Shown: positions 1 to 12,337, counted from the first letter of the stretch. The stretch is DNA of 12,819 nt from a virus (IMGVR_UViG_2778260995_000007:1-12819); one strand, 5' to 3'. Made by a program: numbers and translations. The notes: generated by a model not told the origin, from the sequence alone.

Positions 1-117
1 GTTTCGCCGATTGTTTCCGGTGAGGTTATCCGTTCCCGTGGCGGCTCCACCTCTGAATTTACGCCGGGATATGTCAAACCCAAGCACTTAGCATGGCTTT
101 CTGAGGCTTTCGTGTAG
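1..117 (+). pseudogene. E: 5' fragment of lambda-type major capsid protein gene E; frame enters from upstream of the window, is broken after codons ...GYVKPKH (nt 87) and runs into element sequence to a TAG at 115-117
   Basis: Frame 1 translates VSPIVSGEVIRSRGGSTSEFTPGYVKPKH, which matches my recollection of lambda gpE; the continuation ...KPKHEVNPQMTLRRL is found at 10733 onward. Confidence 0.8.
77..86. repeat. Left copy of 10-bp direct repeat AACCCAAGCA (putative attL core)
   Basis: Identical 10-mer at 10731-10740; flanking bases differ on both sides. Confidence 0.6.
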
Positions 118-249
118 TTGCTGGTTTTTACACTTAATCTTTTGATAATAAAGAATAAGTTTATCTGGTGCTTTCACTGAATTTTCCTCGTTATCTGTGT
201 GTTGCAATCATCTCTGTATTGCAGCTTGTATTGCTTTTTGGGGCTAAAA

Positions 250-1485
250 ATGGCTGGCGAGAACAAACTGAGCGACAAAGCGCTTAAAGGATATCTGGGG
301 AAACCCAGAGAAAAGCAGATCACCATTGCTGATGGAAAGGGGCTTTCTATTCGTGTGAGTACTAAAGGGGCTGTGAGCTTTGTTTTCTTCTACAGGTTAG
401 CAGGTGGCCGGGCTGCTCCGGTCTGGCTAACGTTGGGTAAATATCCTGATATGTCACTCAAACAGGCAAGGGAAAAGCGCGACGAGTGCCGTGGTTGGTT
501 GGCTGACAAACGTGATCCGCGTATCCAGATAAAGATTCAGGCTGAAGAACGCTTAAAGCCGGTCACAGTGGAGGATGCACTAAATTACTGGTATGAAAAT
601 TACTGTAAGGTGCGTCGTAAAACTCATGCTGTAACGCTTGGCAGATTTCGAAAGCATATCTTTCCCTATATCGGTCATTTGCCCGTAAATGACACTCACC
701 TATATGAATGGCTGGACTGTTTTGACCGAATTAAACGTAATGCACCAGTTATGGCGGCGTATGTTTTTTCTGACACTAAATTAGCTCTTCGTTTTTGTCG
801 GGTACGCCAGTACGCGACGTGTGATGCTTTAAAGGATTTGCGCATGAGTGATGTGGGGCAGATTGCAGGTAAGCGGGATCGGGTTCTGGATGAAGCCGAA
901 CTCGGCCAGCTCTGGAAGGCAATTTTTGTCGAGCCTGATTTAAAACTAATGTCTGAATACACGCGAAAAATGTTTGTGCTTTGTACACTATTTGGATGTC
1001 GAATGAGTGAAGCCCGATTATCAGAATGGAGCGAATGGGATCTCGAAAGTTGGGTTTGGACTGTACCAAAAGATCACTCAAAAACTGGTGTTGAAATCGT
1101 CAGACCAGTACCTGAAATTCTACGACAGTGGGTAACGGATGTTCACGAAGAGACAAAACATACTGGTTATGTGCTGGGAAGTCTGCGAATTAGAGAAAGC
1201 GTAAGCAAGATTGGGGGGAAAATCGGTAAACGTTTGGGCCATGAAAAACAATGGTCACTACACGACCTTAGAAGAACGCTATCTACTCATCTAAGTGATC
1301 TCGGTGTTGAATTTTATGTAGTAGAACAACTGTTAGGCCATGCGCTACCTGGCGTGGCAGGTGTTTACAACCGGAGTAAGTTTATGGCTAAAAAACTGGA
1401 TGCTCTGGAACTCTGGACTACATATCTCAATAGCATCGCAGGTGCTGATTCAAAAGTGACAATCCTCAAACAAAAGGCTGGTTAA
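250..1485 (+). CDS. int: Tyrosine site-specific integrase, P4-type
   Basis: ORF 199-1485; start placed at ATG 250 (MAGENKLSDKALKGYL...). N-terminal region and C-terminal ...HDLRRT...LLGHA... motifs are typical of P4-family integrases; sits next to the attL repeat. Confidence 0.88.
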   Translation: MAGENKLSDKALKGYLGKPREKQITIADGKGLSIRVSTKGAVSFVFFYRLAGGRAAPVWLTLGKYPDMSLKQAREKRDECRGWLADKRDPRIQIKIQAEERLKPVTVEDALNYWYENYCKVRRKTHAVTLGRFRKHIFPYIGHLPVNDTHLYEWLDCFDRIKRNAPVMAAYVFSDTKLALRFCRVRQYATCDALKDLRMSDVGQIAGKRDRVLDEAELGQLWKAIFVEPDLKLMSEYTRKMFVLCTLFGCRMSEARLSEWSEWDLESWVWTVPKDHSKTGVEIVRPVPEILRQWVTDVHEETKHTGYVLGSLRIRESVSKIGGKIGKRLGHEKQWSLHDLRRTLSTHLSDLGVEFYVVEQLLGHALPGVAGVYNRSKFMAKKLDALELWTTYLNSIAGADSKVTILKQKAG

Positions 1486-1486
1486 C

Positions 1487-1714
1487 ATGAAAAAAATGGC
1501 AATTGTTGATAAAAAGGGTCTGGAGTACATTCCTAACATTGATCGTATGATCCGTGAGAAAGAATGTCGGGAGCTAACCACTCTTGCGAACAGCACACGC
1601 TGGAAGCTGGAGAAGGAAGGAAAATTTCCTAAGCGGATCAAGATTGGCGCTACTGCGGTAGCTTACCGTCTCTCCGAAGTTCAGGCATGGATTAGGGGGG
1701 AATGGCGGACATAA
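1487..1714 (+). CDS. alpA: AlpA-family HTH regulator / excisionase-like protein
   Basis: 75 aa; ...LTTLANSTRWKLEKEGKFPKRIKIGATAVAYRLSEVQAWI is a typical AlpA (Phage_AlpA) HTH; ATG lies 1 nt after the int stop, suggesting translational coupling. Confidence 0.8.
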   Translation: MKKMAIVDKKGLEYIPNIDRMIREKECRELTTLANSTRWKLEKEGKFPKRIKIGATAVAYRLSEVQAWIRGEWRT

Positions 1715-1750
1715 ATGTTGTAGTAAATTGTTATATAAAAGGGTGTAAGC

Positions 1751-2626
1751 ATGGCTACTCGAAAAAAAAATAGCGTAGAAATGAAAACTGTTTGTGAACT
1801 AATCATATCAAGAGATGATATGAAAGATAAAATTCAAGACAGAATTCAAAAAGGATTATTACTCCTACAGAAAAGCATAAATAACAATAGTGACTTGGAG
1901 CTGTTTAATGCTGATTACAGGAAATGGAGTGATTTTAATGCTGAGCTACTGAAGCGTAGTTTCACAAATGATGATTTCAAAGAAGAATATGAAGGTGGGG
2001 CATTTGGTGTTATTTCATTGTACGAGACTTCCTTGGGAGAAAAAATCAGTGAGGCTACGCGTAAACTCCAGAGTAAGATAAGAAAACTAGAGTCGATTAT
2101 GGAGCGACTGGAGTTAATTCCTATATCTTCCAAAGTTGTTGAAGAAAATATTGAAGTACCTCAGAGTTCAGCGGTAAAAACCAAAAAAGTATTCATTGTT
2201 CATGGAAGAGATGAAGTATCAAAAACCAACTTAGAAGTGTTTTTAAGAGAAATTGGCTTAGAACCTATTGTTCTCCATAGGCAAGCTGATGTAGGTCAGA
2301 CAGTGATTGAGAAATTTGAAGCAAATAGTGATGTTGGTTTCGCATTCATTCTTCTCACACCTGATGAGATCGCTTATTTATTTCCGCAAGACTCTTTACC
2401 TGATAATGAAAGAGAAAAGGAGTTACGTGCACGACCAAATGTAATGTTTGAATTTGGTTATTTCGTAGGGAAATTAGGTCGTTCTAAGGTTTGTTGTCTA
2501 TACACAGGTGATGTAGTGATTCCAAGTGATTTGAATGGTCTTATTTATAAAAAATTCAATTCTTCTATTGAAGAAGTAGCATATAGCATTATTAAAGACT
2601 TGCGAGCTACTGGTTACGCAGTTTAG
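1751..2626 (+). CDS. Cargo protein with an N-terminal helical region and a C-terminal TIR-like domain (resembles the COG4271/CAP12-type TIR-like fold); candidate anti-phage effector
   Basis: 291-aa ORF, visibly AT-rich compared with neighbours. C-terminal KKVFIVHGRDE...FAFILLTPDE...RARPNVMFEFGYFVGKLGRSKV matches the motif pattern I recall for TIR-like proteins. Not confirmed by search. Confidence 0.6.
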   Translation: MATRKKNSVEMKTVCELIISRDDMKDKIQDRIQKGLLLLQKSINNNSDLELFNADYRKWSDFNAELLKRSFTNDDFKEEYEGGAFGVISLYETSLGEKISEATRKLQSKIRKLESIMERLELIPISSKVVEENIEVPQSSAVKTKKVFIVHGRDEVSKTNLEVFLREIGLEPIVLHRQADVGQTVIEKFEANSDVGFAFILLTPDEIAYLFPQDSLPDNEREKELRARPNVMFEFGYFVGKLGRSKVCCLYTGDVVIPSDLNGLIYKKFNSSIEEVAYSIIKDLRATGYAV

Positions 2627-2655
2627 TAAATTCTTTGAACTAAAAATCTGCATAG

Positions 2656-2688
2656 ATATAGAGCCATTCGAGATAAATGGCTCTATAT
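2656..2688. terminator. Perfect 13-bp inverted repeat (ATATAGAGCCATT / AATGGCTCTATAT, 7-nt loop) between convergent genes; possible bidirectional terminator or protein-binding palindrome
   Basis: Seen directly; lies 30 nt after the stop of the 1751-2626 gene and 14 nt after the stop of the minus-strand RHH ORF. AT-rich stem, and a T-run on the minus strand only after a 9-nt spacer, so terminator function is uncertain. Confidence 0.4.
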
Positions 2689-2701
2689 GAAATATTATCT
2701 G

Positions 2702-2881
2702 TTAAATTTTGACTTCATATCCGCGTTGCTGTAGTTCTTTGCGAATAATCCTTTTAATCCAGGCTGCTAAAGATTCGTCTCCATCTACTTGCTGTGCTTG
2801 CTCCATCAACTCCCTCAACTCAGGATCTAACCGAAACTGGAACGGAGGATTACCACGTCTTTGATTTTTGTGTGTTGACAC
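2702..2881 (-). CDS. Small Arc/MetJ-like ribbon-helix-helix DNA-binding protein (59 aa from GTG 2881; a 34-aa version from ATG 2806 would lack the ribbon strand)
   Basis: Minus-strand translation VSTHKNQRRGNPPFQFRLDPELRELMEQAQQVDGDESLAAWIKRIIRKELQQRGYEVKI has an Arc-like strand-helix-helix pattern. Below the length cut-off of the supplied ORF track; start codon uncertain. Confidence 0.4.
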   Translation of the reverse strand: MSTHKNQRRGNPPFQFRLDPELRELMEQAQQVDGDESLAAWIKRIIRKELQQRGYEVKI

Positions 2882-2929
2882 GTCAATTACACCCGATGTA
2901 ATGTGTTAATGTGTGATGACACATTACAT
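2875..2929. promoter_or_regulatory. Promoter/operator region: plus-strand TTGACA (2875-2880) - 16 nt - TGTAAT (2897-2902); 11-bp inverted repeat ATGTAATGTGT (2896-2906) / ACACATTACAT (2919-2929) plus tandem TAATGTGT (2899-2906, 2907-2914)
   Basis: Seen directly in the intergenic region between the minus-strand RHH ORF and the plus-strand operon starting at 3012; palindrome arms overlap the candidate -10 elements. Confidence 0.4.
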
Positions 2930-2948
2930 ACGTGTTTAGGAAAATGCA

Positions 2949-2981
2949 ACGCCTCGACGTGCGGGAACACCATCGAGGCGT
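2949..2981 (+). promoter_or_regulatory. GC-rich hairpin in the 5' leader of the replication operon (9-bp stem ACGCCTCGA / TCGAGGCGT, 15-nt loop); no downstream U-tract
   Basis: Perfect inverted repeat seen directly, 30 nt upstream of ATG 3012. Confidence 0.3.
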
Positions 2982-3011
2982 CTAACCAACCCGTTAAATG
3001 AGGTAACGATT

Positions 3012-3377
3012 ATGGCTGGAACACAGCATACCCAAACTCACCCTAAATTTATATACACCTTTCTGGCACTACACCACGACCGCATGGCAGATGGAGCAAC
3101 TACGGTACATGTAGCCGCTGACACGCTGGTTGATGCCCGCAAGATGGTTAAGGAGATGGGCTATACTGCGGCTTTCTGGAAAGGGCGTGAAGAAAACACG
3201 CTGTTTATTCAGAAATGCGAAAACAATTTCATCTGGCGTTTTATCGCCCTGAGCACCGCACAACCACGCGTAATACACATCGAGGCCGCCAGCGAACAGG
3301 AAGCCCGGCTGCAATCCCCAACTGGCTACGTGATGATATTCGCCGCCCGTATTCGTCAGGAGGTGTGCCATGAATGA
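3012..3377 (+). CDS. Hypothetical protein, first gene of replication-module operon
   Basis: 121-aa ORF with GAGGT RBS 6 nt upstream; stop overlaps the next start. Confidence 0.65.
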   Translation: MAGTQHTQTHPKFIYTFLALHHDRMADGATTVHVAADTLVDARKMVKEMGYTAAFWKGREENTLFIQKCENNFIWRFIALSTAQPRVIHIEAASEQEARLQSPTGYVMIFAARIRQEVCHE

Positions 3378-3594
3378 TCTTTATTTTAAAGTGCTGACAC
3401 ATGCTGAAAACGCGCTCGTTTGTGGCAAAAATATGCGAGAAATCTTATCAACCTGGCTTGATGGGACAACAAATGCGGAACACGATGAACGGGATGCTAA
3501 TTTAGCTGGAGCGTTAATTACGTTACTTGATCCTGTCATCAAAGAGCTGGATGAAGCTATAAAAATACACGACCAGAGCTATACCGGAGAATAA
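3370..3594 (+). CDS. Hypothetical small protein
   Basis: 74-aa ORF; AGGAGG 4 nt upstream of ATG; 8-nt overlap with the upstream ORF. Confidence 0.6.
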   Translation: MNDLYFKVLTHAENALVCGKNMREILSTWLDGTTNAEHDERDANLAGALITLLDPVIKELDEAIKIHDQSYTGE

Positions 3595-3597
3595 AAA

Positions 3598-3885
3598 ATG
3601 AAAAATAAATTTTCTGGCTTTATTGCCAGCGGTCAAACTCATTCAAAAATCAGCCTTGGGGATATTTTCAAAGACAGCTATGGCTATCGGGTAAAGATTA
3701 TTTCGGTTGATGATCGTCGTGTCTCTTATTTGCGTGATGGTTATGATTTTGAATGTGTTATGCCGCGTCAGCAGTTCGAAAGAGATTTCATTCTGGTAAA
3801 AAATTGCAAGACAGATAATCAGAGGCGTGCCGCAGGCTATATCCGCAAAATTCGGGCAATGTTAGTTGCCGGAGGTAACAAATGA
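3598..3885 (+). CDS. Hypothetical small protein
   Basis: 95-aa ORF packed tightly between neighbours; stop overlaps the primase start (ATGA). Confidence 0.6.
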   Translation: MKNKFSGFIASGQTHSKISLGDIFKDSYGYRVKIISVDDRRVSYLRDGYDFECVMPRQQFERDFILVKNCKTDNQRRAAGYIRKIRAMLVAGGNK

Positions 3886-5633
3886 AACGTGCTCCGAACT
3901 TAAAATACCAACCGCGCGACAAAATGACAGAAGTCATCATTTTTGCTGGCAGTGATGCCTGGAGCCATGCAAAAGAATGGAATGAATGGGCGGGTAAGCA
4001 TATTGCCGCCGACGATGTGCCGCCTGTCGTGCTGGCTGATGAGCAACTGAAAAATATCACCGATTACCGGATCATTGATGAAGATCGTCAGTGTGTGCGT
4101 GTTTACCGCGCAGGACATATCACAGAGCACAGCATGACGCAGATTGTTACGTTACTGGCTGTGGCTGGAGTGAAGACCGTACACGAATACGCGGGGATTA
4201 CTGACACCAGCCCAGTGGATTTATCCGAGCAGTTGCCGCGACTCAAAGAGGAATGCGAGCGTGGGGAAAGTCTGGTGCTTAATCTTCCGACGAAGCAAAA
4301 GGCGCAACTTTCACAGATGGCAGACAGTGAACGTGCACAACTACTTGCCGATCGCTTTGATGGTGTGTGTGTTCATGCAGAAAGTGAAATCGTCCACGTA
4401 TGGCGCGGCGGGGTATGGTGTCCGGTCAGCACAATGGAGCTGAGCCGCGAAATGGTGGCGATCTATTCAGAGCACAGGGCCACGTTCAGCAAACGTGTAA
4501 TCAATAACGCCGTGGAAGCGTTAAAAGTTATTGCCGACCCCATGGGGGAGCCGTCCGGTGATTTGCTACCGTTCACTAATGGTGTGCTTAACCTGAAAAC
4601 GGGGGAATTTTCTCCGCACTCGCCGGAGCACTGGAGCACCACGCACAATGGCATTGAGTACACGCCACCAGTAGCAGGGGAAAACATCCGCGATAATGCG
4701 CCAAATTTCCATAAATGGCTTGAACATGCTGCAAGAAAAGACCCGCGCAAGATGATGCGTATATGTGCCGCGTTATACATGATTATGGCGAACCGCTACG
4801 ACTGGCAGATGTTCATTGAGGCCACCGGAGACGGGGGAAGCGGTAAGAGTACATTTACCCATATTGCCACCCTGCTTGCTGGCAAACAGAACACCGTAAG
4901 CGCGGAGATGACATCACTCGATGATGCAGGAGGGCGCGCGCAGGTTGTCGGGAGTCGTCTTATCGTCCTTGCCGATCAGCCGAAATATACGGGGGAAGGC
5001 ACGGGCATCAAGAAAATCACGGGAGGCGATCCCGTTGAAATTAACCCGAAATATGAGAAGCGATTCACGACGATAATAAGGGCGGTGGTACTGGCAACCA
5101 ATAACGACCCGATGATCTTTACCGAACGAGCCGGAGGTGTGTCACGCCGTCGGGTGATTTTCCGGTTCGACAACATTGTAAGGGAGGACGAAAAAGACAA
5201 GGAATTACCGGAAAAGATAGCGGCAGAAATCCCCGTAATTATCCGCCGCTTGCTGGCTAATTTTGCTGACCCTGAAAAGGCACGGGCTTTATTACTGGAA
5301 CAGCGTGACGGTGATGAAGCTCTGGCAATAAAGCAGCAAACGGATCCGGTTGTTGAGCTTTGCGCGGCGCTGGAGTTTCTGGAGGAAGCTCGTGGGCTAA
5401 TGATGGGCGGTGGTGGTGACACCGTGAAGTACACGACCAGAAACAGCCTTTACCGTGTCTATATGGCCTTCATGGCATACACAGGAAAGGGGAAATGTTT
5501 GAGCGTGAATGAGTTCGGAAAGGCTATGAGGTCAGCGGCGAAAGTTTACGGATATGAATATATTACGCGAAAAGTTAAGGGAGTCACGCAGACCAACGCA
5601 ACGACTACTGATGATTGCGATGCGTTTTTATAA
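3882..5633 (+). CDS. Replication initiator: primase-associated SF3 helicase-type protein (P4 alpha C-terminal / D5-like family; the pri-rep of PICI-type satellites)
   Basis: 583 aa; Walker A GDGGSGKST and a downstream hydrophobic strand ending in D (LIVLAD) typical of P4-family primase-helicase C-terminal domains; GGAGG RBS; followed by an iteron array. Confidence 0.85.
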   Translation: MKRAPNLKYQPRDKMTEVIIFAGSDAWSHAKEWNEWAGKHIAADDVPPVVLADEQLKNITDYRIIDEDRQCVRVYRAGHITEHSMTQIVTLLAVAGVKTVHEYAGITDTSPVDLSEQLPRLKEECERGESLVLNLPTKQKAQLSQMADSERAQLLADRFDGVCVHAESEIVHVWRGGVWCPVSTMELSREMVAIYSEHRATFSKRVINNAVEALKVIADPMGEPSGDLLPFTNGVLNLKTGEFSPHSPEHWSTTHNGIEYTPPVAGENIRDNAPNFHKWLEHAARKDPRKMMRICAALYMIMANRYDWQMFIEATGDGGSGKSTFTHIATLLAGKQNTVSAEMTSLDDAGGRAQVVGSRLIVLADQPKYTGEGTGIKKITGGDPVEINPKYEKRFTTIIRAVVLATNNDPMIFTERAGGVSRRRVIFRFDNIVREDEKDKELPEKIAAEIPVIIRRLLANFADPEKARALLLEQRDGDEALAIKQQTDPVVELCAALEFLEEARGLMMGGGGDTVKYTTRNSLYRVYMAFMAYTGKGKCLSVNEFGKAMRSAAKVYGYEYITRKVKGVTQTNATTTDDCDAFL

Positions 5634-5646
5634 AAAATGGCAATGG

Positions 5647-5875
5647 TTATCTACCTTGTCTACCTGACTGAAAGAAAATACTTTTATTTCAATGTATTAA
5701 TGCAGGTAGATAACTATTTTTCACTGTCTACCTGTTATCTACCTTATCTACCCATTTTTGTAGACAGGTAAGGAGACGGGTAGAGATGAGGTAGACAGCT
5801 ATTTGGGGCTGTCTACCTCCCTGAAACCCGCGCCATTACTGGCCTGATAACTAATCAGGTAGACAAGGTAGACAA
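5647..5875. repeat. Iteron array, putative replication origin: about 12 copies of GGTAGA(C/T)A in both orientations around an AT-rich stretch (5667-5700)
   Basis: Seen directly: TTATCTACC/TTGTCTACC tandem at 5647-5664; GGTAGATAA at 5705-5713; three copies at 5725-5753; GGTAGACAA x2 at 5858-5875, and others. Confidence 0.7.
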
Positions 5876-5922
5876 GGTGGTGGTGCACAAAAAACTTTTT
5901 AAACGAGGGGGTAAAAATAAAA

Positions 5923-6165
5923 ATGCACACATCAGGAAAACTGAACAAACATATAAAGCCACATTACCGCGCCCTTGATATGGCTGAACACTGGCTAAGG
6001 GTGGCGATTAAGGCAATAGACCGCAACGCCGGGGAAGGATACGCGAAAGCACATCCCGAACTGATAAGCGCATTCATGACAACGGCGGCTGCAAACTTTG
6101 CCACGCTGACCGAACGGGAGATTGCCGAAGCGGAGGAAGTGACAACCATCAATATTAAGTCCTGA
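5923..6165 (+). CDS. Hypothetical protein
   Basis: 80-aa ORF with a G-rich RBS upstream; no recognisable motif. Confidence 0.5.
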   Translation: MHTSGKLNKHIKPHYRALDMAEHWLRVAIKAIDRNAGEGYAKAHPELISAFMTTAAANFATLTEREIAEAEEVTTINIKS

Positions 6166-6176
6166 GAGCAGGCAGC

Positions 6177-6626
6177 ATGACGGCGCAAATAGCAGCTTAC
6201 GGGCGGCTGGTGGACGAGCCACAGGTAAAACATACCAGCAAGGGAACACCCATGACACTGGCACGGATGGCGGTATCTTTGCCATGCAGCCAGGCAGATG
6301 ACGGAACGGCGACGATGTGGTTATCTGTGCTGGCGTTTGGCAGACAAGCCGACGCGCTGGCAAAGCATCACAAAGGCGAACTCCTGAGCGTGGCGGGTAA
6401 TATGCAGGTGAGCCAGTGGACTGGACAGAACGGTGAAACGCGGCAGGGCTGGCAGGTTATCGCAGACAGCGTAATCAGTGCGCGAACGGTGCGACCGGGC
6501 GGCAAAAAAGGTCAACAGGGTCAGGCTACTGACGCACTGAACAGAGCAAAACAACAGGCAGATCAGCAAGGAAGCCATCCACCAGTGGGAGATAATGAAC
6601 AATGGGGAGATGATATTCCGTTTTAA
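6177..6626 (+). CDS. Single-stranded DNA-binding protein-like (OB fold) with canonical acidic C-terminal tip ...DDIPF
   Basis: 149 aa; OB-fold pattern (...WLSVLAFGRQAD...KGELLSVAGNMQVSQWTGQNGETRQGWQV...) followed by a Gly/Gln-rich linker and C-terminal DDIPF, as in bacterial SSB. Confidence 0.7.
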   Translation: MTAQIAAYGRLVDEPQVKHTSKGTPMTLARMAVSLPCSQADDGTATMWLSVLAFGRQADALAKHHKGELLSVAGNMQVSQWTGQNGETRQGWQVIADSVISARTVRPGGKKGQQGQATDALNRAKQQADQQGSHPPVGDNEQWGDDIPF

Positions 6627-6645
6627 ATATTGCCAATAAAAAAAG

Positions 6646-6670
6646 GCCGGAAAAAAATAAATTTTCCGGC
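6646..6670. terminator. Hairpin (9-bp stem GCCGGAAAA / TTTTCCGGC, 7-nt loop) downstream of the SSB-like gene; A-tract on the 5' side only
   Basis: Seen directly; a T-run follows the stem only when read on the minus strand, so plus-strand termination is uncertain. Confidence 0.35.
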
Positions 6671-6844
6671 ATGCTACATAAATCCCGACCAAAGGGAGTG
6701 AAGATATTAACACTAATTATCCGCGCTGAAGTTGTTATCCCAAAACTTTATACAACATTGCACTCGGTTGCATGTATTCGCATGACAAATATCGGTGATA
6801 GCATATATCCACAATTATTTTTAATGAATGCAAAGAGGATGCGT

Positions 6845-7885
6845 ATGGTCGATTTATATTCGCCTACCCAGCTTGTACAGGTGGTTAATGCTGTAGATGT
6901 ACAAAAACAACTAAATGCGTTGTTTACCAGTTTGTTTTTTACTCGCTCTGTAATGTTTGAATCGCGCGATATTATTCTTGATACAATCGACGATCCAAAT
7001 ATCCCAATTGCAGCGTTTTGTTCTCCTATGGTGGGTAGTAAAGTTTCACGTGACGAAGGGTACGAATCAAAAACAATTCGTCCAGGCTATATGAAGCCGA
7101 AAAGCAGCATTGATCCAAATAAGTTAGCTGTGCGCCCTGCTGGTGTATCACCTGAGCAATACAATGCTTTTGGAGCGCGTAATATTAAAGTTAAACAGGC
7201 GATTGTAAATCAGGCTAAAGCTATTCGTGCACGTATTGAATGGCTTGCCGTTCAGGCAATCACAACGGGGAAAAATATCATTGAGGGCGATGGTATTGAA
7301 CGTTATGAACTGGACTGGAATATAAAACCACAAAATATTATCACGCAGTCTGGCGGTGCTGAGTGGTCAGGTAAGGATAAAGAAACTTTTGATCCAAATG
7401 ATGATATTGAGAGCTACGCAGAATTTAGTGAGGGCGTCACTAATATCATCATTATGGGCGGTAATGTATGGAAGAAATACCGTTCATTCAGAGCGATAAA
7501 AGAGGCTCTGGATACCCGCCGTGGTTCTAATTCCGAACTGGAAACGGCCCTTAAAGACCTTGGTGATTCGGTGAGTTTTAAAGGGTATATGGGCGATGTT
7601 GCGATTGTTGTTTACAGCGGACGTTATACCGACGAGGACGGAACTGAAAAACATTTCCTTGATCCTGATTTGATGGTGCTTGGCAATACGGCTCTTCAGG
7701 GGATTGTCGCCTATGGCGGTATTCAGGATCCGGAGCTAACCCGAATGGGGCTGACTAAAGCCGAACTTGCACCGAAAAACTATATTGTGCCTGGTGATCC
7801 GGCTATTGAGTACGTACAAACGCACTCTGCACCACAGCCAATACCGGCCCGCATCAATCGTTTTGTTACCGTTCGCATTGGCTAA
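6845..7885 (+). CDS. Major capsid protein, diverged homologue of lambda gpE, encoded by the element
   Basis: Start moved to ATG 6845 (AAGAGG RBS), giving 346 aa, close to lambda E in size. Shares blocks with lambda E as I recall it: PGYMKPK, ITQSGGAEW, LDTRRGSNSELETA, GDVAIVVYSG, VLGNT, GDPA (roughly 40-50% identity by eye). Confidence 0.8.
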   Translation: MVDLYSPTQLVQVVNAVDVQKQLNALFTSLFFTRSVMFESRDIILDTIDDPNIPIAAFCSPMVGSKVSRDEGYESKTIRPGYMKPKSSIDPNKLAVRPAGVSPEQYNAFGARNIKVKQAIVNQAKAIRARIEWLAVQAITTGKNIIEGDGIERYELDWNIKPQNIITQSGGAEWSGKDKETFDPNDDIESYAEFSEGVTNIIIMGGNVWKKYRSFRAIKEALDTRRGSNSELETALKDLGDSVSFKGYMGDVAIVVYSGRYTDEDGTEKHFLDPDLMVLGNTALQGIVAYGGIQDPELTRMGLTKAELAPKNYIVPGDPAIEYVQTHSAPQPIPARINRFVTVRIG

Positions 7886-7894
7886 GGGGGAGCA

Positions 7895-8236
7895 ATGGCT
7901 ACTCATTACACTGAACTCATGTCTGGCACTGAAGCACTGGTTACTACGCTGGGGATATTTTCAGCCAATAAAGGGGTAATACCTGCGTTTACGCCACTGA
8001 TGCAGGAAGATGCAACTGGTGCGCTAGTGGTATGGGATGGAACGAGCGCAGGCAAAGCGGTTTATGTTTCCGCTGTACAAATCGACACAGCGAAAAAAAC
8101 ACAGGCACAGGTTTATAAGACAGGTGTTTTAAATGTTGATGCTCTGAACTGGCCTGAGTCTGTAAGAGAACTGTCGGCAAAGGTTGCCGCGTTTGTTGGC
8201 TCAGGTATTTCTGTTCAGCCGCTGGCTCGTGTGTAA
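7895..8236 (+). CDS. Head decoration protein, homologue of lambda gpD
   Basis: 113 aa; ...PAFTPLMQEDATGALVVWDGTSAGKAV...YKTGVLNVDALNWPE...AAFVGSGISV parallels lambda D (...PAMTPLM...LVAWDGTTDGAAV...YKSGTFRYEDVLWPE...TAFAGTAISIV); AAGGGGGA RBS. Confidence 0.8.
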   Translation: MATHYTELMSGTEALVTTLGIFSANKGVIPAFTPLMQEDATGALVVWDGTSAGKAVYVSAVQIDTAKKTQAQVYKTGVLNVDALNWPESVRELSAKVAAFVGSGISVQPLARV

Positions 8237-8247
8237 AGGGGGATACA

Positions 8248-8631
8248 ATGCAGAATCATTACAATGACCTTAAGCCAATTGCCGAAATGATGTACCCGAA
8301 TCCAGCTGTAGAGGAATTAAAAGCTATCGCTGACAAAATGTGTTTAAGCGAGCGCCTTGTTGATATGAATCAGGTGATGGAAATTACAACCCTGAGTCGG
8401 CGTACACTGCTAAACCTTGAGGCTAGTGGAGAGTTCCCGGAGCGTGTGCAGGTTACGGAAGGGCGTAAGGCCTGGTATTTAAGTGAAGTGATCGACTGGA
8501 TAAATAATATTCCTCGCGCTTCTGAATATTGCCGCGTACCTGTCCCAAAAAAGCCAGATGCGGCGCTATGCCTCAAGATTGAGCGTGTACGCCGCAATGC
8601 ACGGGATGGTCGCTATAAGCTGATTGGTTGA
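8248..8631 (+). CDS. AlpA/MerR-like HTH DNA-binding protein, larger than a typical AlpA, function unknown
   Basis: 127 aa; central ...MEITTLSRRTLLNLEASGEFPERVQVTEGRKAWYLSEVIDWI is an AlpA-type HTH; AAAGGGGGA RBS; follows the capsid genes. Confidence 0.65.
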   Translation: MQNHYNDLKPIAEMMYPNPAVEELKAIADKMCLSERLVDMNQVMEITTLSRRTLLNLEASGEFPERVQVTEGRKAWYLSEVIDWINNIPRASEYCRVPVPKKPDAALCLKIERVRRNARDGRYKLIG

Positions 8632-9287
8632 TGAAATTAGGGCCCGCTCTGGCTGGCGGGTCCTTTCCGGCGATCCAGAACGTTACGGGGCGTCAGGCGC
8701 GCAGTTTTTTGCTATTTATGAAAATTTTCCGGTTTAAAGCGTTTCCGTTCTTCTTCGCCGTAACTTAATGTTTTTATTAGAAACACCCACTAAAAAGAAA
8801 GGAAACAACAGATGCTGAAAACGTGTTTTTTGGACAGTGTCGTTTCCTTTCTCTGGTTTTGTTGCCGTCTGTCGCGGTCTGTCACCAGAAAAAACTCTCA
8901 CCCCTGCGTTGAATCAGGCTCTACACTAAAGTAGACAATAACGCGCCGCTGGCTTCGCTTCATGGTCGTGGCCTACTTCTGCACTATCGCAACAGCCTTA
9001 TGCGCCCTGCTGGTGAGCTATTGAGTAAGCAGAATGCGGATTACAAGGCATCCTATGCGTTTTGTGGCGTACCGAACACAACCGCTCAGGTGAATCCCGT
9101 TTTGTTAGTTTATGGAAAGAGCCGTATCGGGGGCGCAATCATTTCTGCGTGGATCTATGTCGAAGACAAAATGTGGTATGCGCATCTGGCCGGAGGGTGA
9201 GCAATTTATCAGGGAAGTATCATCTCTACAGGTTTAAGACAACCAGAAGAAGTTATCGAGCAAGTTGGGTATGAAGATTTTCCTATA

Positions 9288-9551
9288 ATGGTAACGTTTA
9301 AGATTCCGGTGTTTGGTATCGTGGTGGGAACATGGAGGAATGTGGATCCGGCAAAATCATTCGGTTTTTTCCGTCAATTCATTGTGGACTGGGATTAGGA
9401 GAGTGTGCTTACTGACCAAGCTCTTAAGGGATATTTATATGCTTACCTAGGCACTGATGAAGCACTTTTCAAATGCTGGGCGGATTATATGAAATGCAGA
9501 TTGGCAGAAAATGAACATAGGTTTAAAAAATATACTGAGACTGTAAACTGA
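9288..9551 (+). pseudogene. Possible decayed ORF: 87-codon frame broken by an in-frame TAG at 9396-9398, no RBS
   Basis: Translation MVTFKIPVFGIVVGTWRNVDPAKSFGFFRQFIVDWD*ESVLTDQALKGYLYAYLGTDEALFKCWADYMKCRLAENEHRFKKYTETVN*; sits in a ~1 kb stretch (8632-9676) without convincing genes. Confidence 0.2.
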
Positions 9552-9676
9552 GTTCGCTGTGATTTAATTCGTGATTTAATCGAAGAGAGGAAAGTGAAAT
9601 GAGCCCTGCTAAGGGCCGCATCTTTATATTGAACGACTTATCACTAGATTAGGAAATCACTTCGAATGATATGCTG

Positions 9677-10549
9677 TTACTTTATAATTCCGTCTTTGAA
9701 AACCATTTTCTTAGCGCCAGAGGTATAGTTTTGAACAATTCCCAATAACTCTTTTGAATAGTCAATTGTAGAAATTGTCTCTGCCGGTTTGTTATATGTG
9801 TAATTAAGTGAGTAACCTCTCAGCTTTAATCTTAAATCACCATTTTCTAACTCTAAATAAGCGTCGGTTAGCTCTTCTTTGTAAGTGCCTGCACCATATT
9901 GGATGTTAGGTACTCTCGCGGATAAGGAGTTTTCTAAGTCGCAGAGAGAATACTTGTCGTGGGTAGTATTATCAACGATGAATATTTGGTTGTTAAGTAG
10001 TCGACTGAACCTTGAATTTAAATCATCTATGTTTAAATTTTTTTGCGACTCAAGCCAGCTTGCATCTATCATTGGTGAGAATGCAGTTATTCTGGGGGGA
10101 GTTATCGCGACGATATTCAATTGAATAGTTTTGATAAGTGGTGTTCCATCTGGCGCGCGCCAGTCTTCGTTATCAGCTTCACGAACTATTAGAAGGTCAA
10201 TTTTATATTGTTCGGCTTTTTTTTGAGCCCCACTTTGATACCCTGTTTTGGTTGCATAAATTAGTCTTAGGCCGGGAATATCTGCTGTTTTTCCGATGAA
10301 TGCGTCAATTTTCTCGATACTTACACTTGAAGCGTAGTCTTTGCATTCGATTACGGTCTTATATTCATAACCTCCTAAGTTAAATTCCCAATACACATCG
10401 AATTGCCTAGTTATGCCGTTTTTATCTACGATTTTTTTGTTTACTTCAACGGTGATGTTTTTCAAGTGAGAAATTTTCTCAGCTTGTATCAAGCTTTGAT
10501 GAATCGCCCCAACAAATTCCTCATAATCTCTGCCAGTGTTTTTAGTCAT
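9677..10549 (-). CDS. Mrr-type restriction-endonuclease-like (PD-(D/E)xK) protein with an uncharacterised C-terminal domain; candidate defence nuclease
   Basis: Start placed at ATG 10549 (GAGG RBS 8 nt upstream; the track's 10567 start is TTG), 290 aa. N-terminal half shows a PD-(D/E)xK pattern (...QFDVYWEF...YKTVIECKDY...SIEKIDAFIGK...LIYATKTGYQSGA...). Visibly AT-rich. Confidence 0.75.
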   Translation of the reverse strand: MTKNTGRDYEEFVGAIHQSLIQAEKISHLKNITVEVNKKIVDKNGITRQFDVYWEFNLGGYEYKTVIECKDYASSVSIEKIDAFIGKTADIPGLRLIYATKTGYQSGAQKKAEQYKIDLLIVREADNEDWRAPDGTPLIKTIQLNIVAITPPRITAFSPMIDASWLESQKNLNIDDLNSRFSRLLNNQIFIVDNTTHDKYSLCDLENSLSARVPNIQYGAGTYKEELTDAYLELENGDLRLKLRGYSLNYTYNKPAETISTIDYSKELLGIVQNYTSGAKKMVFKDGIIK

Positions 10550-10730
10550 TGTGCAGCCTCGTTCCAATCATCAGAGTAACGGTTAAATATTTATACACCT
10601 TGAATCTATGAACAGATTTATGTCACTTCACGCTGTATTGCACGCTGTATTGCATTAAGGAGGAATAATGTCGATTTGATGATGTTTTATCAAGTAAATT
10701 CATTCACATCCTTTCATATTTGACTCATGT

Positions 10731-10740
10731 AACCCAAGCA
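10731..10740. repeat. Right copy of 10-bp direct repeat AACCCAAGCA (putative attR core)
   Basis: Identical to 77-86; the E reading frame resumes directly here (CCC AAG CAT GAG GTG = P K H E V). Confidence 0.6.
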
Positions 10741-11521
10741 TGAGGTGAATCCGCAGATGACCCTGCGTCGCCTGCCGGATGAAGATCCGCAGAATCTGGC
10801 GGACCCAGCTTACCGCCGCCGTCGCATCATCATGCAGAACATGCGTGACGAAGAGCTGGCCATTGCTCAGGTCGAAGAGATGCAGGCAGTTTCTGCCGTG
10901 CTTAAGGGCAAATACACCATGACCGGTGAAGCCTTCGATCCGGTTGAGGTGGATATGGGCCGCAGTGCGGCGAATAACATCACGCAGTCCGGCGGCACGG
11001 AGTGGAGCAAGCGTGACAAGTCCACGTATGACCCGACCGACGATATCGAAGCCTACGCGCTGAACGCCAGCGGTGTGGTGAATATCATCGTGTTTGATCC
11101 GAAAGGCTGGGCGCTGTTCCGTTCCTTCAAAGCCGTCAAGGAGAAGCTGGATACCCGTCGTGGCTCTAATTCCGAGCTGGAGACAGCGGTGAAAGACCTG
11201 GGTAAAGCGGTGTCCTATAAGGGGATGTATGGCGATGTTGCCATCGTCGTGTATTCCGGACAGTACGTGGAAAACGGTGTCAAAAAGAACTTCCTGCCGG
11301 ACAACACGATGGTGCTGGGGAACACTCAGGCACGCGGTCTGCGTACCTATGGCTGTATTCAGGATTCGGACGCACAGCGCGAAGGCATTAACGCATCTGC
11401 CCGTTACCCGAAAAACTGGGTGACCACCGGCGATCCGGCGCGTGAGTTCACCATGATTCAGTCAGCACCGCTGATGCTGCTGGCTGACCCTGATGAGTTC
11501 GTGTCCGTACAACTGGCGTAA
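10733..11521 (+). pseudogene. E: 3' fragment of lambda-type major capsid protein gene E (from ...KPKHEVNPQMTLRRL to the C-terminus)
   Basis: Translation matches my recollection of the lambda gpE C-terminal ~260 aa almost residue for residue; an in-frame TAA at 10730-10732 closes the frame upstream. Confidence 0.85.
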
Positions 11522-11523
11522 TC

Positions 11524-11550
11524 ATGGCCCTTCGGGGCCATTTTCTCTCT
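11524..11550 (+). terminator. Rho-independent terminator-like hairpin after E (ATGGCCC-TTCG-GGGCCAT followed by a T-rich tract)
   Basis: 7-bp GC-rich stem with TTCG tetraloop and TTTTCTCTCT tail, seen directly 3 nt after the E stop. Confidence 0.6.
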
Positions 11551-11562
11551 GTGGAGGAGTCC

Positions 11563-11961
11563 ATGACGAAAGATGAACTGATTGCCCGCCTCCGCTCGTT
11601 GGGTGAGCAACTGAACCGTGATGTCAGCCTGACGGGGACGAAAGAAGAACTGGCGCTCCGTGTGGCAGAGCTGGAAGAGGAGCTTGATGACACGGATGAC
11701 ACTGCCGGTCAGGACACCCCTCTCAGCCCGGAAAATGTGCTGACCGGGCATGAAAATGAGGCTGTATCAGCGCAGCCGGATACCGTGATTCAGGATGCGG
11801 CTGATCTGGTCACCGTTGTGGCACTGGTGACGCTGCATACTGATGCACTTCACGCCATCCGGGATGAACCTGTGGCATTTGTGATGCCGGGAACGGCGTT
11901 CCGTGTCTCTGCCGGTGTGGCAACCGAAATGACAGAACGCGGCCTGGCCAGAATGCAATAA
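11563..11961 (+). CDS. FI: Lambda-type head assembly/DNA packaging protein FI
   Basis: Start at ATG 11563 with GGAGGAG RBS (the track's ORF begins upstream at 11524); MTKDELIARLRSLGEQLNRDVSLTGTKEELALRVAEL... matches lambda gpFI as I recall it. Confidence 0.88.
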   Translation: MTKDELIARLRSLGEQLNRDVSLTGTKEELALRVAELEEELDDTDDTAGQDTPLSPENVLTGHENEAVSAQPDTVIQDAADLVTVVALVTLHTDALHAIRDEPVAFVMPGTAFRVSAGVATEMTERGLARMQ

Positions 11962-11972
11962 CGGGAGGCGCT

Positions 11973-12326
11973 GTGGCTGATTTCGATAACCTGTTCGATG
12001 CTGCCATTGCCCGCGCCGATGAAACGATACGCGGGTACATGGGAACGTCAGCCACCATTACATCCGGTGAGCAGTCCGGTGCTGTGATACGTGGTGTTTT
12101 TGATGACCCTGAAAATATCAGCTATGCCGGACAGGGCGTGCGCGTTGAAGGCTCCAGCCCGTCCCTGTTTGTCCGGACTGATGAGGTGCGGCAGCTGCGG
12201 CGTGGAGACACGCTGACCATCGGTGAGGAAAACTTCTGGATAGACCGGGTTTCGCCGGATGATGGCGGAAGTTGTCATCTCTGGCTTGGACGGGGCGTAC
12301 CGCCTGCCGTTAACCGTCGCCGCTGA
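11973..12326 (+). CDS. FII: Lambda-type head-tail joining protein FII
   Basis: GTG start with GGGAGG RBS; MADFDNLFDAAIARADETIRGYMGTSATITSGEQSGAVIRGVFDDPENISYAGQGVRVEG... matches lambda gpFII. Confidence 0.88.
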   Translation: MADFDNLFDAAIARADETIRGYMGTSATITSGEQSGAVIRGVFDDPENISYAGQGVRVEGSSPSLFVRTDEVRQLRRGDTLTIGEENFWIDRVSPDDGGSCHLWLGRGVPPAVNRRR

Positions 12327-12337
12327 AAGGGGGATGT

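What the first reader, a model, noticed from the sequence alone, without database searches (positions are those of the whole stretch)
2702..3011. Unannotated Arc-like RHH ORF divergent from the replication operon, with overlapping promoter and palindromic operators
A minus-strand ORF too short for the supplied track translates to an Arc-like ribbon-helix-helix sequence. Between it and the plus-strand operon (3012-5633) lie a near-consensus promoter (TTGACA-16-TGTAAT), an 11-bp inverted repeat whose arms overlap the plus and candidate minus -10 elements, and a tandem TAATGTGT half-site. This looks like an autoregulated repressor switch controlling the replication genes, which Gram-negative PICIs are generally thought to lack.
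Basis: partly seen in the sequence, partly recalled or inferred. Interest (0 to 1): 0.55.

Follow-up and report, generated by a model that had tools for sequence, protein, structure and literature searches.

The report
Hidden repressor and antisense RNA in PICI
A small, conserved DNA-binding protein gene, its binding sites and a previously unnoticed antisense RNA sit in front of the replication genes of an E. coli phage satellite, which suggests that these satellites have a repressor-type control layer that the current AlpA-activator model does not include.

Summary

Its start codon is the reverse complement of the -35 box of a conserved rightward promoter (TTGACA-18-TAATGT). The non-coding block 2865-2928 is the most conserved DNA in the locus. 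Five RHH subfamilies differ in their DNA-reading beta-strand, and each carries different repeats at the same promoter positions.

Beyond the finding, the leader 2940-3018 most likely encodes a roughly 77-nt cis-antisense RNA over the ribosome-binding site and start codon of the Icd-like gene. Covarying hairpins, a strand-specific wobble bias, a minus-strand terminator and a near-invariant TAnnnT -10 inside variable codons support this.

The window is a helper-embedded PICI (11capE type). The prototype EcCICFT073 has a positional equivalent.

Most likely the region is a repressor plus antisense-RNA control of the Icd-like/primase operon, similar to plasmid copy control or phage P22 immI. No experiment has tested DNA binding, repression or expression.

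The parts
2702..2881 (-). Gene for a 59-aa ribbon-helix-helix protein (GTG start; beta-strand PPFQFRL, helix A 20-33, helix B 38-53)
2890..2894 (-). Shine-Dalgarno-like GGGTG, 8 nt upstream of the RHH start codon
   Evidence: Read from the sequence. (A/G)GGTG-N8-(A/G)TG recurs in the rows of the other subfamilies that I inspected by eye. Inference.
2875..2904 (+). Rightward promoter P_R: -35 TTGACA 2875-2880, 18-nt spacer, -10 TAATGT 2899-2904; predicted transcription start about 2911. The -35 box is the reverse complement of the RHH start codon plus the Ser codon.
   Evidence: TTGACA-17/18-TAnnnT is kept in all RHH subfamilies. Promoter activity is inferred.
2886..2929 (.). Operator-like array: hexamers ATTACA 2886-2891, TGTAAT 2897-2902, TGTGAT 2912-2917 (degenerate here; TGTAAT in most relatives) and ATTACA 2923-2928, paired at 11-bp spacing. 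Includes the perfect 11-nt inverted repeat 2896-2906 / 2919-2929 and the tandem TAATGTGT 2899-2914.
   Evidence: Block 2865-2928 is the most conserved DNA of the locus (0.82-0.91 identity). Subfamilies with a different beta-strand have different repeats at the same positions.
2921..2949 (-). Candidate leftward promoter P_L for the RHH gene: -35 TTGCAT 2949->2944, 17-nt spacer, -10 TAATGT 2926->2921; predicted start about 2914, face to face with P_R
   Evidence: Read from the sequence. By-eye reading of representative rows gives TTGyTT-17/18-TACACT in subfamily B and TTACAT-17-TACACT in subfamily C. Weak by consensus. Inference.
2940..3018 (-). Predicted cis-antisense RNA of about 77 nt. A 5' stem (AGCCA/UGGUU) encloses a hairpin whose loop carries the anti-Shine-Dalgarno CCUC. 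It is followed by terminator hairpin 2981->2949 and the tail UGCAUUUUCC.
   Evidence: MFE -32.2 kcal/mol, z -4.06. 12 of 17 pairs covary, 0 of 500 shuffles reach the observed values. 57 C.A cells against 6 G.U cells favour the minus-strand RNA. Weak full-length Rfam hits lie at the same borders: symR E=0.043, RF00043 E=0.68.
3025..3053 (-). Promoter of the antisense RNA: -10 TATGCT 3030->3025, 17-nt spacer, weak -35 TATAAA 3053->3048; predicted start about 3018
   Evidence: The same register is found in nearly every locus. ORF positions +14 A (100%), +18 T (98%) and +19 A (98%) are near-invariant while 18 different tripeptides occupy codons 5-7.
2949..3014 (+). Leader of the Icd-like operon: SL1 2949-2981, CTAACCA 2982-2988, SL2 CGTTA 2992-2996 / TAACG 3004-3008 with SD GAGG 3000-3003 in its loop, ATG 3012
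3012..5633 (+). Controlled operon: Icd-like (3012-3377), orf74 (3370-3594), DUF4222 (3598-3885), D5-type primase (3882-5633)
   Evidence: The reading frames overlap or abut.
2656..2688 (.). 13-bp perfect hairpin between the convergent TIR gene and RHH gene; likely end of the RHH transcript
   Evidence: Not conserved in relatives, because the neighbouring cargo differs.

Best explanation
The region 2702-3053 is a two-layer negative control module for the early/replication operon of the satellite (Icd-like, orf74, DUF4222, primase).

Layer 1, transcription. The 59-aa RHH protein binds as dimers to the TGTAAT/ATTACA hexamer array at 2886-2929. This array covers the -10 element and start site of P_R (TTGACA-18-TAATGT). 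It also covers the -10 of the opposing candidate promoter P_L, which would make the RHH mRNA. Binding would therefore shut off the operon and limit the protein's own synthesis. The two promoters face each other with predicted starts about 3 nt apart, so they also exclude one another.

Layer 2, translation. A roughly 77-nt antisense RNA is transcribed from a promoter inside codons 5-14 of the Icd-like gene and ends at the SL1 terminator. It pairs with the leader, the Shine-Dalgarno sequence and the AUG of the Icd-like gene. This would block translation and, through polarity, expression of the primase.

Induction. By analogy with EcCICFT073, induction would come from AlpA-dependent rightward transcription entering from the int-alpA side.

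Shown by computation here: the gene is real and RHH-like; the promoter and repeats are conserved; the repeats change together with the beta-strand; the RNA structure covaries and fits the minus strand; a -10 element is conserved inside coding sequence.

Inferred: DNA binding, repression, autoregulation, expression of the RNA, and how AlpA overrides the module.
For: Gene reality:
- 113 homologues at 60-100% identity from E. coli to Mannheimia.
- Median dN/dS 0.057.
- The third codon position is the least conserved.

RHH fold:
- AF2 predicts two helices with pLDDT above 90.
- The Foldseek list is dominated by RHH proteins.
- hhalign aligns PPFQFRLDP with Arc PQFNLRWP.
- PHROG 228 'Arc-like repressor' matches at E=1.6e-5.

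Operator:
- The 11-nt inverted repeat has P about 6e-4 in shuffles.
- Block 2865-2928 is more conserved than the coding sequence.
- In 69 loci from other species plus 7 E. coli loci, TTGACA overlaps the start codon and is followed by TAnnnT after 17-18 nt.
- Subfamilies A to D and the L001 allele have beta-strands PPFQFRL, KQIALRV, KQIAFRV, DQYQIRL and PQFRMRI. Their repeats are TGTAAT arrays, CAAGTGT, (C)AGTGTA, two copies of TTGTAATTACAA, and GGTGACCACC.
- The variable block (beta-strand, helix A and operators) is flanked by more conserved helix B and leader sequence.

Linkage to the operon rather than to cargo:
- The Icd-like, DUF4222 or primase genes lie on the P_R side in at least 31 of 69 loci. 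The TIR gene occurs only in the window's own lineage.

Antisense RNA: as listed under parts.

Context:
- EcCICFT073 has a divergent 59-aa ORF and two GTGGGCCACACCT repeats flanking the -10 of its equivalent promoter.
- AlpA is the known activator, and its over-expression triggers replication.
Against: - No experimental evidence exists for a transcript, a protein, DNA binding or repression.
- The window protein reaches no curated family cut-off. Pfam gives nothing. NCBIfam YlcI_YnfO_N scores 18.8 against a cut-off of 30, and VapB 19.3 against 60.
- Foldseek E-values are all above 1, and the AF2 monomer did not form the beta-strand.
- The beta-strand codons and the operators are physically adjacent. 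Their joint variation could therefore reflect block inheritance rather than co-adaptation.
- P_L and the -35 of the antisense promoter are weak by consensus.
- The protein and its operators are about 80-90% conserved across genera, whereas immunity repressors usually diversify.
- AlpA over-expression alone induces EcCICFT073, so in that prototype any repressor is subordinate to AlpA.
- The Icd-like protein matches PHROGs labelled 'transcriptional repressor' and could be the protein that reads the repeats.
Confidence: 0.58

Rival explanations
1. The RHH and the antisense RNA form a replication (copy-number) feedback circuit that acts after excision, like CopG/RNAII of pMV158 or CopB/CopA of R1. 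They would not be the maintenance repressor of the quiescent island. Quiescence would be due simply to the absence of AlpA.
For: The architecture is a small RHH at the promoter of the replication operon plus a 70-80-nt countertranscript over the ribosome-binding site. AlpA alone is enough to induce EcCICFT073. The RHH is strongly conserved across genera, which fits a housekeeping replication control better than an immunity function.
Against: PICIs are reported to have no plasmid state and no copy-control genes (PMC6092414). The allelic cassette pattern of beta-strand plus operators resembles immunity-type diversification. This rival overlaps mechanistically with the best explanation and differs only in timing.
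Confidence: 0.2
2. The repeats at P_R are read by another protein, either AlpA or the Icd-like first gene product. The RHH protein would have a different role, for example binding the conserved leader, excision or partition, or sensing a helper protein through its conserved C-terminal tail.
For: The Icd-like protein matches PHROG 1743 and 6196, annotated 'transcriptional repressor' (E=5e-29). AlpA is the demonstrated regulator. Helix B and the tail SAWIKRIIRKELQSRGIEPKG are conserved across all RHH subfamilies, which suggests a shared partner.
Against: The repeats differ whenever the RHH beta-strand differs. On plasmid L003 the RHH, operators and leader are kept without a detectable Icd-like domain. 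The RHH start codon is embedded in the promoter.
Confidence: 0.12
3. The RHH is an antitoxin or a regulator of the adjacent TIR-domain defence gene (1751-2626), or of a toxin-antitoxin pair.
For: There are weak matches to VapB and HicB RHH antitoxins. JGI names some homologues 'HicB family'. The gene lies next to a PADLOC PDC-S35 TIR gene. In L004, L005 and EcCICFT073 a small ORF follows the RHH-like gene.
Against: The TIR gene is convergent and separated by a hairpin, and it is present only in the window's own lineage. The window has no partner ORF downstream of the RHH. The module always travels with P_R and the leader, not with the cargo.
Confidence: 0.05
4. The ORF is not expressed, and its conservation reflects DNA-level signals only.
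For: The start codon is GTG with only a weak Shine-Dalgarno. There is no strong promoter for it. No Pfam family matches.
Against: dN/dS is about 0.06 with saturated dS. Conservation shows codon periodicity. The ORF is intact at 56-63 aa in most of about 75 loci across three bacterial families. (A/G)GGTG-N8-start recurs in the rows inspected.
Confidence: 0.03

Closest known systems
Phage P22 immI region (Mnt and Arc RHH repressors, overlapping Pant/Pmnt promoters, sar antisense RNA). Comparison is from established knowledge, not tested here.
   Different: There is no family membership: Pfam Arc does not match the window protein, and the best relative scores E=0.14. The controlled operon encodes an Icd-like protein and a primase rather than an antirepressor. 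The antisense RNA covers the first gene's start, not an internal junction. Only one RHH gene is present.
Plasmid dual copy control: CopG plus RNAII (pMV158), CopB plus CopA (R1), and the R1162/RSF1010 countertranscript. Comparison is from established knowledge.
   Different: CopG is co-transcribed with repB, whereas here the repressor gene is divergent. The RF00043 match is at chance level (E=0.68) and is absent from the EcCICFT073 leader, so homology is not claimed. The element is an integrated phage satellite, not a plasmid.
Phage P1/P7 immI (c4 RNA, icd, ant) and the P4 CI immunity RNA
   Same: An Icd-like ORF comes first in an operon whose translation is controlled by an antisense RNA. Some PICIs and HE-PICIs are reported to carry C4/IsrK-type RNAs (PMC10111431).
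   Different: Rfam C4 and IsrK do not match this window even at E<=10. The RNA here is a true cis-antisense transcript with its own promoter, not an RNA processed from the same-strand leader.
Stl/Rpr master repressors of Gram-positive PICIs (SaPIs)
   Same: The position and orientation match: a regulator gene transcribed away from the excision/replication operon, at the border of the integration module (PMC6092414).
   Different: By established knowledge, not tested here, Stl proteins are larger helix-turn-helix proteins. They are inactivated by helper-phage proteins. Here the protein is a 59-aa RHH, no helper interaction is known, and the known inducer of Gram-negative PICIs is the activator AlpA.
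YlcI/YnfO (DUF3950) family, the name RefSeq gives the ORF in some records
   Same: Similar size, the N-terminal 'MST' and an RHH-like pattern. There is a sub-threshold NCBIfam match. The EcCICFT073 gene in the equivalent position carries this name.
   Different: The score is 18.8 bits against a cut-off of 30, and the window protein has no Pfam DUF3950 hit. hhalign of the family against the EcCICFT073 protein is not significant (P=0.13). I found no reported function for the family in the library.

Membership tests
Ribbon-helix-helix (RHH / MetJ-Arc) fold | Beta-strand, helix, turn, helix topology of about 45 residues | tested here: met
Ribbon-helix-helix (RHH / MetJ-Arc) fold | Alternating polar/hydrophobic beta-strand followed by a conserved turn between the helices | tested here: met
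   PPFQFRLDP aligns with Arc PQFNLRWP. R17 and G34 are invariant, and D33 is nearly invariant, in alignment A4.
Ribbon-helix-helix (RHH / MetJ-Arc) fold | Dimerisation and sequence-specific DNA binding through the paired beta-strands | not testable with these tools
   Only indirect evidence: the repeats change together with the beta-strand residues.
Pfam Arc (PF03869) / Pfam RHH families | Score above the gathering threshold | tested here: not met
   The window protein has no RHH-family hit. Relatives give only sub-threshold hits: HicB 5e-4, RepB-RCR_reg 1.6e-3, Arc 0.14.
NCBIfam YlcI_YnfO_N (NF041551) | Score of at least 30 bits | tested here: not met
   18.8 bits, E=1.3e-3.
PHROG 228 'Arc-like repressor' | Significant profile match (the library has no curated cut-off) | tested here: met
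   E=1.6e-5, residues 5-56.
Type II toxin-antitoxin antitoxin (VapB/HicB-type RHH) | Co-transcribed adjacent toxin gene | tested here: not met
   There is no credible ORF downstream of 2702 on the minus strand. The 51-aa ORF 2498-2653 lies mostly inside the TIR gene. VapB scores 19.3 bits against a cut-off of 60.
Autoregulated repressor with divergent/overlapping promoters | Operator repeats overlap the -10/+1 of the target promoter and the repressor's own promoter | tested here: inconclusive
   The geometry fits, but promoter activity, start sites and binding have not been measured.
Cis-antisense (countertranscript) RNA | Own promoter, intrinsic terminator and conserved structure on the strand opposite a ribosome-binding site | tested here: met
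   A -10 TAnnnT is near-invariant inside variable codons. The register is the same in nearly all loci. 12 of 17 pairs covary, with 0 of 500 shuffles reaching the observed values. C.A outnumbers G.U 57 to 6. The fold has z -4.06 and a U-rich tail. Expression itself cannot be tested here.
Rfam C4 / IsrK (P1/P4-type immunity RNA) | Covariance-model match | tested here: not met
   No match at gathering score or at E<=10.
Gram-negative PICI / helper-embedded PICI (11capE type) | int, alpA and primase co-oriented, a size of about 10-20 kb, and integration inside a prophage late gene | tested here: met
   Int, AlpA and a D5 primase are present. Partial prophage capsid E genes lie on both flanks in close relatives, and a capsid fragment lies at 10745-11521. 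The element type is described in PMC10111431.

The most novel reading that the evidence does not exclude
Gram-negative PICIs and helper-embedded PICIs, with the prototype EcCICFT073 carrying a positional equivalent, have an overlooked immunity-like control cassette. It consists of an RHH repressor with allele-specific operators plus a cis-antisense RNA over the first gene of the replication operon. On this reading, AlpA-dependent induction works by overriding this cassette, for example by read-through transcription that runs antisense through the RHH gene. The exchangeable beta-strand/operator block would define hetero-immune groups of satellites. That would bring Gram-negative PICIs much closer to the divergent Stl/Rpr logic of Gram-positive PICIs, and to plasmid copy control, than the field currently assumes.
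Probability: 0.35. Interest if true: 0.8.

Novelty: new member of a known kind. Interest (0 to 1): 0.6.

Why it matters
The published model for Gram-negative PICIs makes three statements. They are transcribed in one direction. [quoted passage not shown] They are switched on by the activator AlpA (PMC6092414). The paper itself calls it 'a mystery' why Gram-positive and Gram-negative islands use different logics.

A conserved, divergently transcribed RHH gene with matching operators and an antisense RNA sits exactly at the entry to the replication operon. The prototype island carries a positional equivalent. This turns the open question into concrete experiments: reporter fusions, EMSA, a Northern blot and gene deletions.

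The allelic beta-strand/operator cassettes would give a simple marker for compatibility or immunity groups of satellites. The compact 250-bp module could serve as an orthogonal set of repressor/operator pairs.

It also shows that small ORFs and non-coding RNAs are being missed in satellite annotation. In one close relative (L001) the RHH allele is annotated as a pseudogene on the wrong strand.

Tried and rejected
- Pfam, NCBIfam and PADLOC give no above-threshold family for the ORF.
- A sequence search of the PDB finds nothing significant, either with the single protein or with a profile.
- Rfam at gathering score finds nothing in the window.
- The weak RF00043 (R1162 antisense RNA) resemblance is not reproduced in the EcCICFT073 leader, so I dropped homology to the IncQ leader.
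- The only promoter the scanner called (ATGACA-18-GAAAAT, 2916-2945) loses the T at the last position of its -10 hexamer in the relatives I inspected by eye. I rejected it as the operon promoter.
- SL1 as a plus-strand terminator or attenuator (for example a target for AlpA antitermination) is rejected. No T-run follows it on the plus strand, and the wobble bias favours the minus strand.
- A link between the RHH and the TIR defence gene is rejected, because TIR occurs only in this lineage.
- Homology between the window RHH family and the EcCICFT073 YlcI/YnfO-type protein could not be shown. I treat that protein only as a positional equivalent.
- Two look-ups in CFT073 hit the wrong region before EcCICFT073 was found.
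- Literature searches for an RHH repressor or an antisense RNA in PICIs found no description.

Full report
**What the window is.** The window carries these genes:
- integrase, 199-1485
- AlpA, 1487-1714
- a TIR-domain gene, 1751-2626
- the minus-strand ORF 2702-2881
- an Icd-like gene (3012-3377), orf74, DUF4222 and a D5-type primase (3882-5633)
- SSB, a lambda-E-type capsid gene, a head-decoration gene and a second AlpA-family gene
- an Mrr-like gene on the minus strand
- the C-terminal fragment of a prophage capsid gene, 10745-11521

In near-identical E. coli loci the element interrupts the major capsid gene of a lambdoid prophage. It is therefore a helper-embedded PICI of the '11capE' type described in PMC10111431.

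**The observation.**
- The 59-aa GTG-start ORF is present.
- TTGACA at 2875-2880 is followed after 16 nt by TGTAAT.
- The perfect 11-nt inverted repeat lies at 2896-2906 / 2919-2929.
- The tandem TAATGTGT is present.

An 11-nt inverted repeat occurs in only 3 of 5000 dinucleotide shuffles of the intergenic region.

Three corrections apply:
- TGTAAT has G at the essential second position, so the scan did not call it. The register TTGACA-18-TAATGT (2899-2904) is better. Every subfamily of relatives keeps TTGACA-17/18-TAnnnT.
- The ORF is not unannotated in public databases. RefSeq has it as WP_024190704.1, 'hypothetical' or 'YlcI/YnfO family' protein.
- Most relatives do not conserve the second tandem copy.

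**The ORF is a real gene with an RHH fold.** The exact protein occurs on about 997 contigs. Homologues at 60-98% identity occur in Escherichia, Klebsiella, Pantoea, Yersinia, Serratia, Proteus, Xenorhabdus, Edwardsiella and Mannheimia. Among 29 distinct coding sequences the median dN/dS is 0.057, with saturated dS. Identity by codon position is 0.73, 0.81 and 0.52.

No curated family threshold is reached, but every weak signal points to RHH proteins:
- PHROG 228 'Arc-like repressor', E=1.6e-5
- VapB and YlcI_YnfO_N in NCBIfam
- HicB, RepB-RCR_reg, PSK_trans_fac and Arc in Pfam, for relatives
- a CopG-family chain in the PDB

**Promoter and operators.** I compared 69 loci from other species and seven E. 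coli loci. In these loci the RHH start codon is the reverse complement of the -35 box ((G/A)TGTCAA = TTGACA(C/T)). A TAnnnT element follows 17-18 nt later, pointing toward the Icd-like gene.

The block 2865-2928 is the best-conserved DNA of the locus, at 0.82-0.91 identity. The coding sequence is at 0.6-0.8, and the region beyond the stop codon at 0.28.

In the window's subfamily the block holds four TGTAAT/ATTACA hexamers, at 2886, 2897, 2912 (degenerate in the window) and 2923, paired at 11-bp spacing. Both arms of the 11-nt inverted repeat contain TAATGT. One copy is the -10 of P_R. The other, on the opposite strand, is the -10 of a candidate P_L (TTGCAT-17-TAATGT). The predicted starts are about 3 nt apart and face each other. 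A GGTG Shine-Dalgarno sits 8 nt before the start codon in the window and in the rows of other subfamilies that I inspected.

**Co-variation of protein and DNA.** The relatives fall into subfamilies. These share helix B and the tail (SAWIKRIIRKELQSRGIEPKG) but differ in the N-terminal arm, the beta-strand and helix A. Each has its own repeats at the same promoter positions:

| Subfamily | Beta-strand | Repeats at the promoter |
|---|---|---|
| A (window) | PPFQFRL | TGTAAT/ATTACA arrays |
| B | KQIALRV | CAAGTGT |
| C | KQIAFRV | (C)AGTGTA |
| D | DQYQIRL | two perfect copies of TTGTAATTACAA, one in the spacer and one just after the -10 |
| L001 allele | PQFRMRI | GGTGACCACC |

Between subfamilies the block 'beta-strand + helix A + operators' is the least conserved segment (0.58-0.65). 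The flanking helix-B half (0.63-0.75) and the leader (0.76-0.78) are more conserved. Within the window's subfamily the block is the most conserved segment. This is the pattern of an exchangeable specificity cassette. Because the segments are adjacent, simple block inheritance cannot be excluded.

**What the module is linked to.** Icd-like, DUF4222 or primase homologues lie on the P_R side in at least 31 of the 69 loci, with AlpA and integrase on the other side. The primase can be D5-type or TOPRIM/DUF927. The TIR gene is found only in the window's lineage. In the closest whole-element relative its slot holds DUF2971 and SWIM genes instead. The module therefore belongs to the replication operon, not to the defence cargo. 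The same module also occurs upstream of a WYL/BREX cluster on a plasmid and in degraded remnants.

**A second layer: an antisense RNA.** Between the operators and the ATG lie two hairpins. SL1 is at 2949-2981. SL2 is at 2992-3008, with the SD GAGG in its loop. In 44 distinct sequences, 12 of 17 pairs change on both sides, giving 63 compensated cells. None of 500 shuffles reach the observed values, and the slid controls are far lower.

Four observations place the structured RNA on the minus strand:
- The non-Watson-Crick cells are mostly C.A (57) rather than G.U (6). C.A on the plus strand is a G.U wobble on the minus strand.
- An A-tract always precedes SL1 on the plus strand. On the minus strand this is a U-tract after the hairpin, which is the form of an intrinsic terminator.
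- A promoter scan of the minus strand finds a -10 in the same register in nearly every locus, with a predicted start at ATG+7.
- Within the Icd-like ORF, positions +14 (A, 100%), +18 (T, 98%; a third codon position) and +19 (A, 98%) are near-invariant, while 18 different tripeptides occupy codons 5-7. Read on the minus strand, these are the T, A and T of TAnnnT.

The predicted RNA (3018 to about 2940) folds at -32.2 kcal/mol, z -4.06. A 5' stem is formed by the near-invariant ATGGCT and CTAACCA complements, an anti-SD CCUC sits in a loop, and a terminator follows. The plus-strand leader folds less distinctively (z -2.16).

Rfam has no family for it. Only weak full-length matches of symR and RF00043 fall at the same borders, and RF00043 is not found in the EcCICFT073 leader.

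**Relation to the published model.** PMC6092414 states that Gram-negative PICIs are transcribed unidirectionally and that a global repressor is 'unclear'. It shows that AlpA is an activator whose over-expression alone causes uncontrolled replication of EcCICFT073. [quoted passage not shown]

EcCICFT073 itself (L080 27931-38655) has a divergent 59-aa 'YlcI/YnfO family' ORF with an RHH-like pattern, followed by a 57-aa ORF. Two GTGGGCCACACCT repeats flank the -10 of TTGACG-18-TATAGT, and the same leader precedes its Icd-like gene. Sequence homology of that protein to the window family is not demonstrable, so it is a positional equivalent only. I found no description of either the RHH or the RNA in the searchable literature.

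**Mechanism proposed.** RHH dimers occupy the hexamer array. This blocks P_R (the Icd-like/primase operon) and limits P_L (their own mRNA). The antisense RNA pairs with any leader that escapes, blocking the Icd-like ribosome-binding site and, through polarity, primase expression.

Induction would come from AlpA-driven rightward transcription. The hairpins between alpA (or the cargo) and the RHH gene look like terminators for the RHH strand rather than for the alpA strand. Read-through that silences the RHH gene and enters the operon is therefore plausible but untested.

The nearest functional analogues are P22 immI (Mnt/Arc plus sar), plasmid copy control (CopG plus RNAII, CopB plus CopA) and P1 immI (c4-icd). 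The position matches that of Stl/Rpr in Gram-positive PICIs.

**Verdict.** This is a new, uncharacterised RHH family with cognate operators and an antisense RNA. As a kind of system it is known. Its presence at the heart of Gram-negative PICIs is new and directly testable. All functional statements remain inferences from comparative sequence analysis.

Noticed in passing
window 1-12819 (flank 10745-11521); L001, L002: [quoted passage not shown] It carries its own E-type capsid and D-type decoration genes. This matches the published 11capE type (PMC10111431).
   Followed up: partly
L080 30243-30860 (EcCICFT073, NC_004431.1 1380242-1380859): The prototype Gram-negative PICI has a divergent 59-aa 'YlcI/YnfO family' ORF plus a 57-aa ORF. 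Two GTGGGCCACACCT repeats flank the -10 of TTGACG-18-TATAGT, and the same SL1/SL2 leader follows. The literature describes the island as unidirectional.
   Followed up: partly
L001 about 4540-4760: The closest whole-element relative carries a different RHH allele (TTG start, ...SPQFRMRISPELK...) with GGTGACCACC repeats. RefSeq instead annotates a plus-strand 'hypothetical protein' pseudogene there.
   Followed up: partly
window 1751-2626: The TIR-domain protein (Pfam CAP12-PCTIR_TIR) matches the PADLOC candidate defence system PDC-S35 (E=5e-67). The slot between alpA and the RHH gene is variable cargo; L001 has DUF2971 and SWIM genes there.
   Followed up: partly
window 9677-10567 (-) and 8248-8631 (+): A minus-strand 296-aa ORF has a weak Mrr_cat restriction-endonuclease match and no PADLOC hit. 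A second AlpA-family gene lies in the late region.
   Followed up: no
L003 3982-4702 (plasmid NZ_CP021681.1): The same RHH, operator and leader module, with a 105-aa ORF sharing only the N-terminus of the Icd-like gene, sits directly upstream of a WYL (BrxR-like) gene and a BREX cluster, next to IS fragments.
   Followed up: no
RHH residues 38-59 (window 2705-2770): Helix B and the C-terminal tail (SAWIKRIIRKELQSRGIEPKG) are almost invariant across RHH subfamilies whose DNA-reading halves differ. This suggests a shared partner or oligomerisation surface. It is unexplained.
   Followed up: no
window 3024-3050 and relatives: The N-terminus of the first operon gene keeps a peptide motif (Q/K)-(H/S)-T-Q-T-(R/H)-P-(K/E)-(F/Y), even when the rest of the protein differs. 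Its C-terminal Icd-like domain matches PHROGs labelled 'transcriptional repressor'.
   Followed up: no
L004 3734-4859; L005 3982-4971; L034, L040, L051, L054: Some islands carry two RHH-type modules in tandem, or an RHH gene followed by a small ORF of 57-75 aa and unknown function. This could be a partner protein.
   Followed up: no
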